Positions 14,707 to 52,039 of a DNA stretch of 64,000 nt are shown piece by piece. The position numbers and the translations under genes are program-made. Within the stretch, counting starts at the first letter, position 1; the number at the start of each line of letters is the position of its first letter. Below the pieces are notes generated by a model. The model searched no databases. It had not been told where the DNA came from and saw only the letters and a list, made by a program, of their open reading frames with translations. This DNA comes from Candidatus Yanofskybacteria bacterium (GTDB lineage Bacteria > Patescibacteriota > Minisyncoccia > 2-02-FULL-40-12 > GWA2-44-9). The DNA lies in the NCBI GenBank assembly GCA_003514055.1, contig DOSG01000008.1:121229-185228 (forward strand). Reading direction: 5' to 3'.

Positions 14707-14890
14707 CCGCTTCGGCCCAAGCCTACGACTCGACCGATAGTCGAGCCGCTCCTGCGGCGGCTCGCTGTCTACACGCTACAGAGACTTAGAGGATGGGCTA
14801 AAGCACCATCCCTCCGAGACGGCCCTCGGAAGATCCAAGCCCTCGGGCCTGTGCGAGTTCTCGCTGTAGGCTTGGGCCTTCGCTTGAATT
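14707..14890. other. GC-rich highly structured segment closed by a 13-bp long-range helix
   Basis: TTCGGCCCAAGCCTAC ... GTAGGCTTGGGCC encloses several local hairpins (GAGCCGC-TCCTGC-GGCGGCTC; GGATGG-GCTAAAGCAC-CATCC). Confidence 0.3.
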
Positions 14891-14922
14891 AATTTTAATC
14901 AAGCGTAGCTCTATTCATTTTT

Positions 14923-15123
14923 GAATCATCCGCAGACAAGCCAAGAATAGGAGATTGGAAAAGCATTAGTCCAAAACAACAGGTCGAGGGCAATACAATC
15001 ATTAAGGAAGAAGGCCTCCCACTAAGTGGGAGGCCTTCTTTAAATGATAGTGCGAGGGTTACCTATTGTTTTGGCCTACTAATGCTTTTCTGTATCGACT
15101 AGACTTGGCGTAGTCGAGGACAA
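14923..15123 (+). ncRNA. conserved-block element R1, homologous to an inverted copy at about 25681-25848
   Basis: Blocks GAATCATCCGCAG, AGGTCGAGGGCAA, TGATAGTGCGAGGGTTACCTA, TTTTGGC and CGAGGACA are shared as reverse complement with the 25.7-kb element. Intervening sequence diverges; R1 carries an extra perfect hairpin GAAGGCCTCCC-ACTAAGT-GGGAGGCCTTC. Confidence 0.35.
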
Positions 15124-15592
15124 GATGAAAAAATGGATGGGGCGGAGCGTGATTTTAAAGTATTAAAAAACTCGTGCCACCGAGATACCCGGTCAGCACG
15201 AGCTGGGTGGAGTTACTCAGCGCTTCGCGCCTTTCGCCCCACCCCCCTACCTACTTGCGTCGCGTCCGTCGGCGATTTACCCTACGGCGGCCGCCACGAC
15301 CTGTCTGGTGCCATGCGTCCTCCACGCGAGTCGATCATCGTCATTGTCGAGTTCTGGACGCTTGGTCGTAGCTATTTGCTACGGCGGCCGCCAGGATCGA
15401 GGGGTTAGCATCATTCCTCCGCATCGTGTAGGTCTACGAATTGAGCGGGCCCGGAGCGGGCCGAGCGCAACAGTCTTCGCCACTATGGCCACCGTTCGCT
15501 GGCCGCTCCGGACCTTCCGTCAACGATACGCCTTTCGCTGGGTCGTCGGGACACGTATCAGGCCCCGCTTCCTCCTCAGATCTAGTGTCTTC

Positions 15593-15751
15593 GGAAGAAG
15601 GTTCAGGCTTTTTTGGGTGGAGTGCCTGACTTTATCTCCGAATGCCCGCGCCCGAGAGAATCTCGGTGCCGCAGGCAATTGGCAGAAGCTGTCCTTCCTT
15701 CAATTCAAACCTTATGAAAGGACTCCCGCTTCCACCAATAGGTACGACCAG
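15593..15751 (+). repeat. 159-bp perfect direct repeat, copy 1
   Basis: GGAAGAAGGTTCAGGCTTTTTTGGGTGGAGTGCC...CACCAATAGGTACGACCAG is identical to 16106-16264. Confidence 0.8.
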
Positions 15752-15773
15752 GCCGTCGGTTCGTGGTCCATCC

Positions 15774-16019
15774 TTACCGGGGGCCGCAGGACGTGCAGGC
15801 GTTCATCGTGCAGACGTTGTAGCCGAACGGGCGGGCCAGGAAGTCATACCACGGGCAATCCTGAGTGACGACCGTCATGCACTCACCCGAGGGGTTGTCG
15901 TAGCCCGCGTCACTCGGGTCGCAGTAGGCGGGACGAGCATCGACGCGGGTCGATTCCGCGATGGGAATGACGATGACCGCGATCAGGAGCATGATGGTGA
16001 ACAGTCTACGCTTGGACAT
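15774..16019 (-). CDS. GC-rich small secreted/membrane-anchored cysteine-rich protein
   Basis: From the internal ATG: MSKRRLFTIMLLIAVIVIPIAES (signal/TM), then a mature part of about 58 aa with 8 Cys. GAGGT lies 5 nt upstream. Sits exactly between the two 159-bp repeats. GC about 60 % versus about 38 % background. Confidence 0.4.
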   Translation of the reverse strand: MSKRRLFTIMLLIAVIVIPIAESTRVDARPAYCDPSDAGYDNPSGECMTVVTQDCPWYDFLARPFGYNVCTMNACTSCGPR

Positions 16020-16105
16020 GGATACCTCGGGTTGTTGGGAATGGGTGAACACCGCTTTGGGCGGCCGTACCTTCTTCTTCGCATCTTCCACGACTTACAG
16101 ACTTT

Positions 16106-16264
16106 GGAAGAAGGTTCAGGCTTTTTTGGGTGGAGTGCCTGACTTTATCTCCGAATGCCCGCGCCCGAGAGAATCTCGGTGCCGCAGGCAATTGGCAGAA
16201 GCTGTCCTTCCTTCAATTCAAACCTTATGAAAGGACTCCCGCTTCCACCAATAGGTACGACCAG
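16106..16264 (+). repeat. 159-bp perfect direct repeat, copy 2
   Basis: Identical to 15593-15751. Confidence 0.8.
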
Positions 16265-16599
16265 ATCGGAATATCGAGGGTTACCCCTGCTTCCGGGACG
16301 GGATCCATCTCCTTTGAAGCCCATCTTGGGGTTTCGCCGGAGACATCTGGTCGAACTTCTTTGCCCAAGAAAGGGCTCAAAAAAACCAATACTACACTGA
16401 TCTACATTCTAATGGCACATTTAATCAAAATTGCGTGTTGCCTGAACTCTCAAAAGACTGCATAAATACTGGCTTTTTTGAGCCCTTACGGGCTCTTTAA
16501 GGAACTTAGTGTAGATACATTATAGCAGATGGCGATATAATGTCAATAGCCACTCCGCCTAGCTCCATCTATTACAACTCCCCATATAGATAAATAATA

Positions 16600-16960
16600 T
16601 TCGAGCTTCTGATAAATCCGAACAAAATCTGGATGCCCCTCAGCCCCAAGGGGCTTCGACCCAGATTATTGCAAGCCCCTTCGGGGTTACCGTATTTATC
16701 ATCGAATCTCTCATTTATTTATATCTATATGACTCGGATTGTAATCGATGGGGCTAGGCTTCGCTTGGTTTATTCGAGCGAAGCCCCAATCACTTCGGAG
16801 GAAATTGCGCAGATATTTTGGCTTATCCTTAGGATGGCCAGCGCCCATTCGCTTTGCGAATAAGCGCTGGCCATGAGAGGTTCTTCAAAATATCGAGCAT
16901 TAGGAGCGAAAGATCGCAGGAAACTTTCGACTCTGATCCGATGAAGTGATTGGGGCTGAG
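16600..16960. other. structured intergenic region downstream of ftsQ (candidate ncRNA)
   Basis: UUCG-looped hairpin AGCCCC-TTCG-GGGTT; GCTTCGC...GCGAAGC; 9-bp GGCCAGCGC...GCGCTGGCC; long-range pairing GCCCCAATCACTTCGG / CCGATGAAGTGATTGGGGC enclosing about 140 nt. Confidence 0.3.
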
Positions 16961-16963
16961 TGC

Positions 16964-50722: not shown

Positions 50723-50779
50723 CGCCCCCCACCTCGCCCACCCAGGGCCGCCTCATCGACGAGATGAGGCGGCCCCCAA

Positions 50780-50824
50780 CCTCGCACAGAGTCAGCGATG
50801 ACTTATCCACGTGCGAGGTTTTTA
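50780..50824 (+). terminator. intrinsic terminator (CCTCGCAC...GTGCGAGG + TTTTT), preceded by a second 12-bp hairpin at about 50745-50775
   Basis: Read directly. Confidence 0.55.
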
Positions 50825-50917
50825 AATACAATAAATCGGTTAGTAACTCTTAATACTACGCTTACAATGGTAAATAACATCATAAAAACCCGACATTTTT
50901 GATTAATACCCAACGAC

Positions 50918-50946
50918 TTGATTTATCCTAGATTATATGTTATAAT
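50918..50946 (+). promoter_or_regulatory. consensus sigma70 promoter TTGATT-17-TATAAT
   Basis: TTGATTTATCCTAGATTATATGTTATAAT; AGAGAGGAG SD ending 4 nt before the ATG at 51005. Confidence 0.5.
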
Positions 50947-51004
50947 ACACGTACGGAGTGACCTTTTACAACCATTGCCGATACAACGTTAAGAGAGGAG
51001 ACAG

Positions 51005-51571
51005 ATGAGACAAGTACTCGTCGATAACTGTGGCTGGTTTTCGTTGTTGGCCTTCTTCGTAATGGGGTGGGCCTACTACATGACGGCCACGATCCTCATG
51101 CGAGGATCGCTGTTCATCGGCCTCCGCGGCCGAATCGACCAGATAGCCGAGAGCGGCTCGTGGCTCTGCACGAAGATTCGCGAGATGCTGGGATGCCTGA
51201 TGTGCACGGCCACCGAGGCGGCCATCTGGACACTCGGCATCGCGACTCTCGGACTCGGCCTGTGGTACAACGTTCCCGACGCGATCATCGGCGCGGCGCT
51301 CGAGAAAATCGGGGCGATTGGCTCCGATAAAATGATCGCGCTGCCGTGGTACGCAAGCGTGGCCATTATGGCCGGCGTATCGTTCGCCCTATCCCTGGCC
51401 GTCGCTGGTCAGGCCTGGGGCATCAAGTGCATCGTTGAGCATCAAGAGGTCAAGTTCTTGGAGCTTCGGAAAGGATCCCGAGCTCGAGAGATTGAACTCC
51501 TCGAGAGGATCAGCGAGCTCGAGAGAACTCCTGGAAAGAGTTGCGAGAAGTACGAATACGATCTGTCCTAA
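51005..51571 (+). CDS. GC-rich polytopic membrane protein with C-terminal charged coiled tail
   Basis: 4-5 TM (FSLLAFFVMGWAYYMTATIL...), then EIELLERISELERTPGK; 188 aa. Confidence 0.45.
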   Translation: MRQVLVDNCGWFSLLAFFVMGWAYYMTATILMRGSLFIGLRGRIDQIAESGSWLCTKIREMLGCLMCTATEAAIWTLGIATLGLGLWYNVPDAIIGAALEKIGAIGSDKMIALPWYASVAIMAGVSFALSLAVAGQAWGIKCIVEHQEVKFLELRKGSRAREIELLERISELERTPGKSCEKYEYDLS

Positions 51572-51584
51572 CGAAGGAGCTGAA

Positions 51585-51926
51585 ATGAAAGTTAAAGCCA
51601 TTATTCCGTTCGCTGAGTTCGCGACAATCTATGCCGCCCTACCTCGTTCCGAGAATTGCGCAACCGTAAGGTGCGCATTCAGCAAGACAACCTGCCACGT
51701 TCGGGAGGCTCGCGAAGCCTGCCGCGAGTGGTGGAAGCGCACCAACGACGGTGCGCCAGGATTCTCGAATTACGAGGCCACGTTCCAGAATGCGATCGAT
51801 GCCGAGAACGCCATCTACTGGTGTTTCCGGACTGGCGACATGGAACCGGCCCAAAAGGCATACGATCTTTTGACCGACGAGCTTCGTGCTCGATTCAGCG
51901 GTCAGCTCCGGATGTCCGGTAGCTAG
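51585..51926 (+). CDS. GC-rich small Cys-containing protein
   Basis: MKVKAIIPFAEF...ENCATVRCAFSKTTCHVREAREACREWW (4 Cys, possible metal site); AAGGAG SD 6 nt upstream; 13 nt after the previous stop (operon). Confidence 0.4.
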   Translation: MKVKAIIPFAEFATIYAALPRSENCATVRCAFSKTTCHVREAREACREWWKRTNDGAPGFSNYEATFQNAIDAENAIYWCFRTGDMEPAQKAYDLLTDELRARFSGQLRMSGS

Positions 51927-51954
51927 ATCTGGCATTCACCACCGGCATAGCCGG

Positions 51955-51986
51955 GGCCGCCCCTCAAAAGGCGGCTTTTATTTTTA
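51955..51986 (+). terminator. intrinsic terminator (GCCGCC-CCTCAAAA-GGCGGC + TTTTATTTTT)
   Basis: Read directly. Confidence 0.55.
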
Positions 51987-52039
51987 TACTTGCAAATATC
52001 AATAAAATGTATTAAAGTATGTAAATCAATTTACATATA

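What the first reader, a model, noticed from the sequence alone, without database searches (positions are those of the whole stretch)
14707..51990. Recurrent GC-rich 'promoter-SD-small ORF-terminator' modules inserted into intergenic spacers of an AT-rich genome
Five segments of about 60-65 % GC sit in a background of about 38 % GC: about 14707-16400, 41100-41830, 47880-48177, 50205-50850 and 50870-51990. Four of them carry near-consensus sigma70 promoters with exactly 17-nt spacers: TTGACT-17-TATAAT, TTGACC-17-TATGGT, TTGACA-17-TATACT and TTGATT-17-TATAAT. Each promoter is followed by a strong SD (GGGAGA, GGAGGGGGG, AAGGAGG, AGAGGAG) and a small ORF encoding membrane, secreted or small beta-rich proteins; three of the four end in hairpin-plus-T terminators. 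Every module sits in an intergenic gap between conserved housekeeping genes (GT39|ftsQ, lon|RNase J, ruvA|uvrB, uvrB|rpsT), so the neighbouring genes are not disrupted. Such compact, self-sufficient high-GC expression units are not expected in a reduced low-GC genome. They could reflect horizontal acquisition from a high-GC donor, a small cargo-carrying mobile element family, or an engineered or chimeric sequence.
Basis: partly seen in the sequence, partly recalled or inferred. Interest (0 to 1): 0.75.

Follow-up and report, generated by a model that had tools for sequence, protein, structure and literature searches.

The report
GC-rich stand-alone small-gene cassettes
A low-GC groundwater CPR bacterium (Candidatus Yanofskybacteria) carries five compact, self-contained GC-rich gene cassettes wedged between housekeeping genes; they are real and of foreign origin, but at least two are old inherited residents that have stayed GC-rich, not fresh insertions or artefacts.

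Summary
The window is from Candidatus Yanofskybacteria and has 41.8% GC. Its 51 background genes have GC3 of 0.41±0.05. Six ORFs in five modules have GC3 of 0.60-0.89. Each module has a near-consensus sigma70-type promoter, a strong SD and a hairpin-T terminator.

The modules occupy the largest intergenic gaps in the window. They are fixed in more than 20 independent assemblies. They are absent from more distant relatives, where ruvA and uvrB are about 27 nt apart.

They are not all recent. A sister species has D downstream of uvrB and E1-E2 upstream of rpsT. Both are still GC-rich there, although four-fold sites in the flanking genes are at or near saturation.

Across 11 CPR genome contexts with host GC3 of 0.27-0.70, the E1, E2 and D families hold GC3 of 0.69±0.08, with almost no dependence on the host.

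There is no phage, plasmid, integrase or transposon signature, and the modules share no terminal repeats.

Best reading: chromosomal, moron-like accessory cassettes drawn from the Parcubacteria gene pool and expressed from host-type promoters. Why their GC content persists is unexplained.

The parts
16519..16546 (-). Module A promoter, TTGACA-16-TATAAT with TG (12/12 consensus matches)
   Evidence: the only exact TTGACA-N15-19-TATAAT in the window
16102..16264 (-). Module A, 163-nt structured repeat, copy 2 (in the 5' leader of ORF A)
   Evidence: three-hairpin fold with z -4.7 on the minus strand, measured on copy 1; no attC core sites
15774..16019 (-). ORF A: 81 aa, signal-peptide-like N-terminus, 6 Cys, GC3 0.85; SD GAGG at 16025-16028
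   Evidence: codon-position GC periodicity is found only here within the island
15589..15751 (-). Module A, 163-nt structured repeat, copy 1 (downstream of ORF A)
15204..15588 (-). Module A, GC-rich (about 62%) non-coding structured 3' tail
   Evidence: no codon periodicity in any frame; fold z -4.3
15165..15203 (-). Module A intrinsic terminator (GCUCGUGC...GCACGAG + U6); strain variant L091 diverges at 15150
41737..41765 (-). Module B promoter, TTGACT-17-TATAAT
41234..41650 (-). ORF B: 138 aa, N-terminal TM anchor, Pro-rich linker and helical domain, GC3 0.80; SD GGGAGA at 41657-41662; species-restricted orphan
41179..41212 (-). Module B terminator (14-bp stem)
47867..47894 (.). Retained ancestral ruvA|uvrB spacer (alignable to the 27-nt spacers of relatives)
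47895..48177 (-). Module C, inserted block abutting the uvrB ATG: terminator 47907-47922; ORF C 47936-48121 (61 aa, two-TM, GC3 0.60); SD GGAGGGGGG at 48129-48139; promoter 48149-48177
50220..50248 (+). Module D promoter, TTGACA-17-TATACT with TG, in the host-type CTATTGACAT context
50255..50329 (+). Module D 5' leader with stem-loop; SD AAGGAGG at 50317-50323
   Evidence: 12 pairs, 4 with changes on both sides, across 4 sequences
50330..50722 (+). ORF D: 130 aa, tandem SH3/Tudor/KOW-like small beta-barrels, GC3 0.89
50745..50823 (+). Module D 3' UTR: hairpin 50745-50775 (compensatory changes across lineages) and terminator hairpin plus T5 at 50780-50823 (near-invariant across three lineages)
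50918..50946 (+). Module E promoter, TTGATT-17-TATAAT with TG
51005..51571 (+). ORF E1: 188 aa helical membrane protein with invariant MLGCxMCTATE..WT.G motif and a long C-terminal helix, GC3 0.76; SD AGAGGAG at 50994-51000
51585..51926 (+). ORF E2: 113 aa, Cys-rich, soluble, GC3 0.66; SD GAAGGAG at 51573-51579; fused to E1 in P0032 and P0036
51943..51987 (+). Module E double-hairpin terminator, conserved in the sister species

Best explanation
The five segments are chromosomal, moron-like accessory gene cassettes. Each is an autonomous transcription unit consisting of a strong host-type sigma70 promoter, a leader that is sometimes structured, a strong Shine-Dalgarno site, one or two small GC-rich ORFs and an intrinsic terminator. 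Each sits in a spacer between housekeeping genes without disrupting them.

The cargo consists of small envelope or secreted proteins: A is a secreted Cys-rich peptide, B is membrane-anchored, C is a two-TM peptide, and E1 with E2 is a membrane pair. D is a tandem beta-barrel protein.

The genes entered this Yanofskybacteria lineage by horizontal transfer from the Parcubacteria/CPR gene pool, after it split from the relatives that have empty sites. D and E1-E2 were already in place in the common ancestor with a sister species and have been inherited vertically since then. A, B and C are lineage-specific.

Shown here: composition, architecture, empty sites in relatives, fixation in the population, orthologous positions in the sister species, the E1-E2 functional link (natural fusions), and real folds for D and E1.

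Inferred, not shown: actual transcription from these promoters, the route of acquisition (probably DNA uptake followed by illegitimate or homology-assisted recombination), and a cell-surface or host-interaction role.
For: Composition.

Promoters and terminators.

Coding status: GC3 periodicity; confident models for D (pLDDT 86) and E1 (pLDDT 79); a diverse E1 family with an invariant motif and two natural E1-E2 fusions.

Insertion relative to L001-L007: a 27-nt ruvA|uvrB spacer there, and no homologues of the module proteins.

Fixed in the population: the same arrangement on 24+24 contigs.

The sister species retains E1-E2 upstream of rpsT-ftsW (housekeeping proteins 57-86% identical, E1 73%, E2 62%). 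It also retains D downstream of uvrB, with a homologous promoter, leader and terminator.

Other low-GC CPR loci carry the same families, and other unrelated GC-rich small-gene modules, in different contexts.

In higher-GC CPR-like contigs, E1-E2 matches the GC3 of the neighbouring obg, lexA and addB-like genes.

The CTATTGACAT promoter context is shared with the probable native uvrB promoter.

Published work reports that HGT into Patescibacteria comes mostly from other Patescibacteria, that single transferred genes average about 0.9 kb, and that 62% of genes in acquired regions are unannotated (PMC12455944).
Against: No donor could be identified for A, B or C. They have no homologues outside this species among 5.8 billion proteins for B, and C and A are seen only in own-species clusters.

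No expression data are available.

Simple transfer followed by amelioration does not explain why D, E1 and E2 are still at GC3 0.66-0.89 in both species, given that the flanking four-fold sites are at or near saturation. It also does not explain why family GC3 is independent of host GC3 (slope 0.14, r 0.24).

No insertion mechanism is visible. There is no integrase or transposase and there are no target duplications, apart from the 163-nt direct repeats around ORF A.

Empty sites for A (GT39 gap) and B (lon | beta-CASP RNase gap) could not be examined in relatives.
Confidence: 0.62

Rival explanations
1. Recent horizontal acquisition from a high-GC donor (a non-CPR organism or the symbiont's host), with the sequence not yet ameliorated.
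For: GC3 is up to 0.89 against a host value of 0.41. A, B and C are species-restricted. C is absent at the same site in the sister species, which instead has an unrelated 39%-GC membrane ORF there. The modules are absent from L001-L007.
Against: D and E1-E2 are at orthologous positions in a sister species whose flanking genes are at or near synonymous saturation. No homologue was found in any non-CPR context. The promoters are host-type and AT-rich. The modules are fixed in all strains sampled.
Confidence: 0.2
2. Phage-derived morons or remnants of decayed prophages left in the chromosome.
For: The architecture matches the published definition of a moron: extra DNA, deviating GC, and its own promoter and terminator (PMC3594210). 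The cargo is small membrane proteins, as with many morons.
Against: There are no phage genes in the flanks, which are housekeeping genes. There are no significant PHROG hits and no IMG/VR hits for D, E1, the E1 alignment, B or the 163-nt repeat. There is no BFVD structural match for E1 and no match in GenBank phages.
Confidence: 0.08
3. Members of one small cargo-carrying mobile element family (MITE-like, IS-like or integron-cassette-like).
For: ORF A is flanked by 99%-identical 163-nt direct repeats. In the sister genome, two modules share an identical promoter and leader, and one carries a copy of the E terminator. IS200 TnpA and an HTH transposase-like fragment lie next to modules in some sister contigs.
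Against: The window's modules share no ends, TIRs or target duplications. The only similarity across modules is the host-type promoter. The repeat has no RYYYAAC or GTTRRRY cores. No integrase or transposase is encoded among the ORFs scanned.
Confidence: 0.06
4. Assembly chimera, contamination or engineered sequence.
For: Sharp composition boundaries and textbook expression signals.
Against: The exact proteins occur on 18-25 contigs from independent MAGs and metagenomes. The arrangement is identical on 24+24 contigs up to 445 kb. Module positions are orthologous in other species. There are no plasmid or vector matches.
Confidence: 0.01

Closest known systems
Phage morons (Juhala/Hendrix concept; reviewed in PMC3594210)
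   Same: They are obvious additions between genes of conserved order. Their GC differs from that of the neighbouring genes. [quoted passage not shown] The cargo is small and often membrane-associated, and is dispensable for core functions.
   Different: These modules lie in a cellular chromosome between housekeeping genes, not in a phage or prophage. No viral relatives were found. At least two are stably inherited across species.
Horizontally transferred single genes and small islets in Patescibacteria (PMC12455944)
   Same: Acquired genes are about 0.3-1.4 kb and mostly of unknown function. The donor pool is apparently other Patescibacteria. Divergence indicates transfers that are not recent.
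   Different: That study did not describe a stereotyped promoter-leader-SD-ORF-terminator architecture. It also did not report persistent GC3 elevation that is independent of host GC.
Classical genomic islands
   Same: Atypical composition, accessory cargo and strain- or lineage-specific distribution.
   Different: The modules are 10-100 times smaller. They have no integrase, no tRNA target and no flanking repeats (except around ORF A). Each is a single transcription unit.
Integron gene cassettes / CALINs
   Same: A small ORF flanked by a structured repeat (module A only).
   Different: The repeat has no attC core sites and there is no intI. These cassettes carry their own promoters, whereas integron cassettes are usually promoterless.

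Membership tests
Phage moron | Extra DNA relative to related genomes with conserved gene order | tested here: met
   ruvA|uvrB is 27 nt in L001-L007 against 311 nt here. uvrB to ftsW is 0.8-1.1 kb in L001 and L004 against 2.3 kb here.
Phage moron | [quoted passage not shown] | tested here: met
   GC3 of 0.60-0.89 against 0.41+-0.05, z = 4-10.
Phage moron | Own promoter and terminator | tested here: met
   Consensus scans and folds find them for all five modules. Their function was not tested experimentally.
Phage moron | Resides in a phage or prophage genome | tested here: not met
   The flanks are lon, a beta-CASP RNase, ruvA, uvrB, rpsT and GT39. There are no significant PHROG, IMG/VR, BFVD or GenBank-phage hits.
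Classical genomic island | Multi-gene block (several kb or more) with an integrase or other mobility gene, often next to a tRNA gene | tested here: not met
   The modules are 0.28-1.4 kb. The only tRNA genes are at 3955 and 58026. No integrase or transposase was found in the ORFs scanned.
Integron cassette / CALIN | attC sites with RYYYAAC ... GTTRRRY cores flanking promoterless ORFs; intI nearby | tested here: not met
   Neither core is present on either strand of the 163-nt repeat. The modules have their own promoters. No intI was found.
MITE/IS-type mobile element family | Shared terminal inverted repeats and target-site duplications among copies | tested here: not met
   An all-against-all comparison of the module non-coding parts finds only the 163-nt repeat within A and the A/D promoter similarity.
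Recently transferred, un-ameliorated gene (Lawrence-Ochman model) | Atypical composition together with absence from close relatives at the same site | tested here: inconclusive
   Met for C, which is absent in the sister species. Not met for D and E1-E2, which are present at orthologous sites in the sister species with flanks at or near saturation. Untestable for A and B, because no relative loci were obtainable.
Recently transferred, un-ameliorated gene (Lawrence-Ochman model) | An identifiable donor lineage with matching composition | tested here: inconclusive
   E1-E2 is compositionally native in the higher-GC CPR-like contigs L100-L102, but those copies are only 43-45% identical to the window's. 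No donor was found for A-D.

The most novel reading that the evidence does not exclude
The GC-richness is an actively maintained property of a pool of small accessory cassettes in Parcubacteria, not a leftover of recent transfer. The E1, E2 and D families hold GC3 near 0.7 whatever the host GC3 is (0.27-0.70), and they do so across a species split with flanking synonymous sites at or near saturation. This would imply one of three things: selection on GC-rich codons or mRNA structure in these strongly promoted, structured-UTR transcripts; repeated allele replacement from a shared gene pool, using the conserved promoter, leader and terminator sequences as homology arms; or localised GC-biased conversion.
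Probability: 0.3. Interest if true: 0.75.

Novelty: new variant of a known kind. Interest (0 to 1): 0.5.

Why it matters
CPR/Patescibacteria genomes are extremely reduced, so any retained accessory DNA is likely to matter for their episymbiotic lifestyle. These cassettes show that such genomes keep strongly promoted, insulated small envelope and secreted protein genes, which makes them candidates for host-contact or exclusion functions.

If the persistent composition, which is independent of the host genome, is real, it challenges the routine use of GC deviation as a clock for recent HGT. It would also offer a tractable case for studying what opposes amelioration: selection on codons or mRNA structure, cassette exchange, or biased conversion.

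Tried and rejected
The following led nowhere or were rejected:
- Rfam, at gathering threshold on the whole window and permissively on 14.6-17.0 kb, found only two tRNAs. No known RNA family covers the structured GC-rich parts.
- Pfam, PHROGs, PADLOC and NCBIfam gave no significant family for any of the six cargo proteins or for 21 E1 family members.
- PDB sequence searches with E2 and A found nothing.
- IMG/VR scans with D, E1, the E1 alignment, B and the 163-nt repeat found nothing.
- Plasmid and phage blastn with the D+E region, and phage blastn with the A region, found nothing.
- The integron attC idea for the 163-nt repeat was rejected, because the repeat has no core sites.
- The idea that CTATTGACAT marks an imported promoter was rejected. 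It also occurs at the probable native uvrB promoter inside ruvA.
- The GGGGCTAGGCTTCG hairpin-end motif is not systematically associated with modules.
- Amino-acid composition explains only a small part of the GC excess.
- The apparent within-species context variants around uvrB and lon are only differences in gene calling.

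
Full report
SOURCE AND OBSERVATION. The six candidate proteins and their neighbours match, residue for residue, proteins of Candidatus Yanofskybacteria MAGs (CPR/Parcubacteria, groundwater). 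They occur on 18-25 contigs, the longest 445 kb.

The window has 41.8% GC. Sliding windows confirm islands of 55-62% GC at 14630-14914, 15127-16380, 41133-41725, 47889-48160, 50250-50849, 51007-51531 and 51593-51997.

Six ORFs lie in these islands:
- A, 15774-16019(-)
- B, 41234-41650(-)
- C, 47936-48121(-)
- D, 50330-50722(+)
- E1, 51005-51571(+)
- E2, 51585-51926(+)

Their GC3 is 0.60-0.89. The 51 background genes have GC3 of 0.406+-0.048, with a maximum of 0.512. Host codon usage applied to the ORFs' amino-acid sequences predicts a GC3 of only 0.41-0.45. The module-bearing spacers (2257, 1995, 737 and 311 nt) include the three largest of 50 spacers, whose median is 61.5 nt.

EXPRESSION SIGNALS. 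Three of them are among the five best sites in 11.7 kb.

It is the only exact TTGACA-N16-TATAAT in the window, on the minus strand at 16546-16519. Module A also has a strong hairpin plus U6 terminator at 15203-15165.

Module A is therefore one minus-strand unit of about 1.35 kb. In transcription order it consists of a leader, a 163-nt structured repeat, ORF A, a second copy of the repeat (99% identical), and a 385-nt GC-rich tail. The tail has no codon periodicity but folds strongly.

D also ends in a hairpin plus T5.

The exact 10-mer CTATTGACAT occurs three times in the window: at the A promoter, at the D promoter, and at an 11/12 promoter inside ruvA that points towards uvrB. The promoters are therefore of the host's own strong type rather than imported with the cargo.

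ARE THE ORFS REAL GENES? ORF A shows third-position GC of 0.78-0.88 confined to its own frame.

E1 belongs to a diverse family. There are 25 hits at 43-99% identity, an invariant MLGCxMCTATE..WT.G motif, and a model at pLDDT 79 that is all-helical with a long C-terminal helix.

Two family members, P0032 and P0036, are natural E1-E2 fusions. The E1-E2 gene pair recurs in 14 or more loci, so the two proteins act together.

No Pfam, PHROG, PADLOC, NCBIfam or PDB assignment was obtained for any cargo protein.

INSERTED RELATIVE TO WHAT? In seven relatives (UvrB 66-75% identical), ruvA and uvrB are divergent and 14-27 nt apart, and no homologue of A-E is present. The ancestral spacer is still recognisable at 47867-47894. 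Module C occupies 47895-48177 and abuts the uvrB start codon. The uvrB|rpsT gap is also variable in relatives: L003 and L005 carry other inserts there.

Within the species, the arrangement with B, C, D and E is identical on all 24+24 contigs read. The only polymorphism seen is at module A. L090 has a 41-nt indel in the second repeat copy. L091 is identical up to 15150, which is the module's terminator end, and then continues into a different gene cluster.

NOT RECENT: THE SISTER SPECIES. The contigs L081-L084 and L094, and L105-L107, probably come from one sister species, because L083 and L105 come from the same sample. This species has UvrB 80% identical to the window's and about 40% GC.

It carries E1-E2 immediately upstream of rpsT-ftsW-GT4-S11-aaRS-HD, as in the window. 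Housekeeping proteins are 57-86% identical, E1 is 73% and E2 is 62%.

It also carries a D homologue (56% identical) downstream of uvrB, with a homologous promoter, leader hairpin and terminator. A third lineage, L108, has the same D module.

Four-fold degenerate sites in the flanking genes are at or near saturation. On the rpsT side, observed identity is 0.24-0.41 against 0.25-0.34 expected. On the uvrB side, it is 0.35-0.38 against 0.25-0.28 expected. E2 is saturated (0.29 against 0.26). D is comparable to its flanks (0.48 against 0.33). E1 is above expectation (0.58 against 0.35, p = 8e-5).

Despite this, GC3 stays high in both lineages: 0.89 and 0.72 for D, 0.76 and 0.72 for E1, and 0.66 and 0.72 for E2. 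The flanking genes are at 0.34-0.47.

By my rough two-state calculation (an inference, not a tool result), neutral decay over this divergence should have removed about two-thirds of any GC3 excess in at least one lineage.

The sister species also has its own GC-rich modules with the same architecture: h85 between FemAB and ruvA, and h128 with h72 next to uvrC. At the ruvA|uvrB site it has an unrelated 39%-GC membrane ORF instead of C. Gain and loss of such cassettes is therefore ongoing.

A WIDER PATTERN. In other low-GC CPR contigs, the E1-E2 and D families sit in different contexts: rpoB|trmD, near a tRNA gene and L21, and among small hypothetical genes. In all of them they are 10-20 GC points above their flanks, and further unrelated GC-rich small-gene modules lie nearby.

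In three higher-GC CPR-like contigs, E1-E2 has the same GC3 as the neighbouring obg, lexA and addB-like genes.

Over 18 gene observations in 11 contexts, with host GC3 of 0.27-0.70, module GC3 is 0.69+-0.08. The slope against host GC3 is 0.14 (r = 0.24, p = 0.34). The data points are not independent and the sample is small.

NON-CODING MODULE PARTS ARE CONSERVED. The 45-nt double-hairpin terminator of module E is nearly invariant between the window and the sister species. In L106 it also follows a 42-aa module downstream of uvrB. The two L106 modules share an identical promoter and leader.

The D leader hairpin has 4 of 12 pairs with changes on both sides. The first 3' hairpin of D shows compensatory changes. 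These UTR structures are therefore under constraint, or have been copied between modules.

MECHANISM AND RIVALS. The modules share no terminal repeats. The 163-nt repeat has no attC cores. No integrase or transposase was found in the ORFs scanned. There are no viral or plasmid relatives.

The architecture matches the published definition of a phage moron in every respect except residence in a phage (PMC3594210).

Published work on groundwater Patescibacteria reports frequent HGT, mostly from other Patescibacteria. It reports single transferred genes of about 0.9 kb, mostly without functional annotation and mostly not recent (PMC12455944). That provides the general frame for this finding.

My best reading is that these are chromosomal, moron-like accessory cassettes acquired from the CPR gene pool and expressed from host-type promoters. 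D and E are ancestral to at least two species. A, B and C are lineage-specific.

The unexplained residue is the persistence of GC-richness and its independence from the host genome.

VERDICT. This is a new variant of a known kind. Interest is moderate, and would be higher if the compositional set point proves to be actively maintained.

Noticed in passing
window 16556-16963 (minus strand): A hairpin-dense stretch between the stop codon of the upstream gene and the module A promoter. It folds into two long, near-perfect hairpin domains of about 180-200 nt each (MFE -178 kcal/mol, z -10.1). They look like MITE-like palindromic elements, and no Rfam family matches.
   Followed up: partly
window 14707-14895 (+): A GC-rich (about 56%) structured element immediately after the GT39 stop codon, with a 14-bp closing stem and a multibranch fold (z -5.6). 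No Rfam family matches. It is retained in strain variant L091, so it is not part of module A.
   Followed up: partly
window 14899-15085 and 25721-25872: An intergenic element of about 190 nt, containing a terminator-like hairpin, recurs in inverted orientation 10.6 kb away at 78-84% identity.
   Followed up: no
L091 8229 onward (window 15150): A strain variant on a 386-kb contig. It is identical to the window up to 15150 and then continues into a PD-(D/E)XK nuclease gene and a PMT_2/GT2/epimerase glycosylation cluster. The GT39 gap is therefore a strain-level rearrangement hotspot. GGAG(A)GTTACTC microhomology lies near the junction.
   Followed up: partly
window 47715-47743 (+), inside ruvA: An 11/12 promoter (TTGACA-17-TACAAT with TG, in the CTATTGACAT context) inside the 5' coding region of ruvA, pointing towards uvrB. 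It is probably the native uvrB promoter. Its transcript would now have to cross module C in antisense.
   Followed up: no
P0032 (L087 4747-5580) and P0036: Natural fusions of E1 and E2 into a single polypeptide of 254-277 aa in other CPR genomes.
   Followed up: yes
L082 614-1042; L106 7574-7837: An IS200/IS605 Y1 transposase lies directly upstream of E1 in one sister-species contig but not in others. An 87-aa HTH transposase-like fragment lies between the two modules downstream of uvrB in L106.
   Followed up: no
L003 5400-6896: A relative with 56% genome GC carries an unrelated ORF of about 1.3 kb at 62% GC between uvrB and rpsT. This gap collects inserts in several lineages.
   Followed up: no
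window 6193-8676 and 60284-61990: Two DUF87/TrwB/TraG-type (VirB4/VirD4-like) ATPase genes are in the window, consistent with DNA-translocation machinery in this CPR genome.
   Followed up: no
P0040 and P0015: Frameshifted variants of B (194 aa) and D (169 aa) occur in single assemblies. They could be assembly errors in GC-rich sequence or occasional pseudogenisation.
   Followed up: no
window 52060-52175: A structured hairpin element of about 115 nt (two nested inverted repeats, one with a CUUCGG loop) lies between the module E terminator and rpsT.
   Followed up: no
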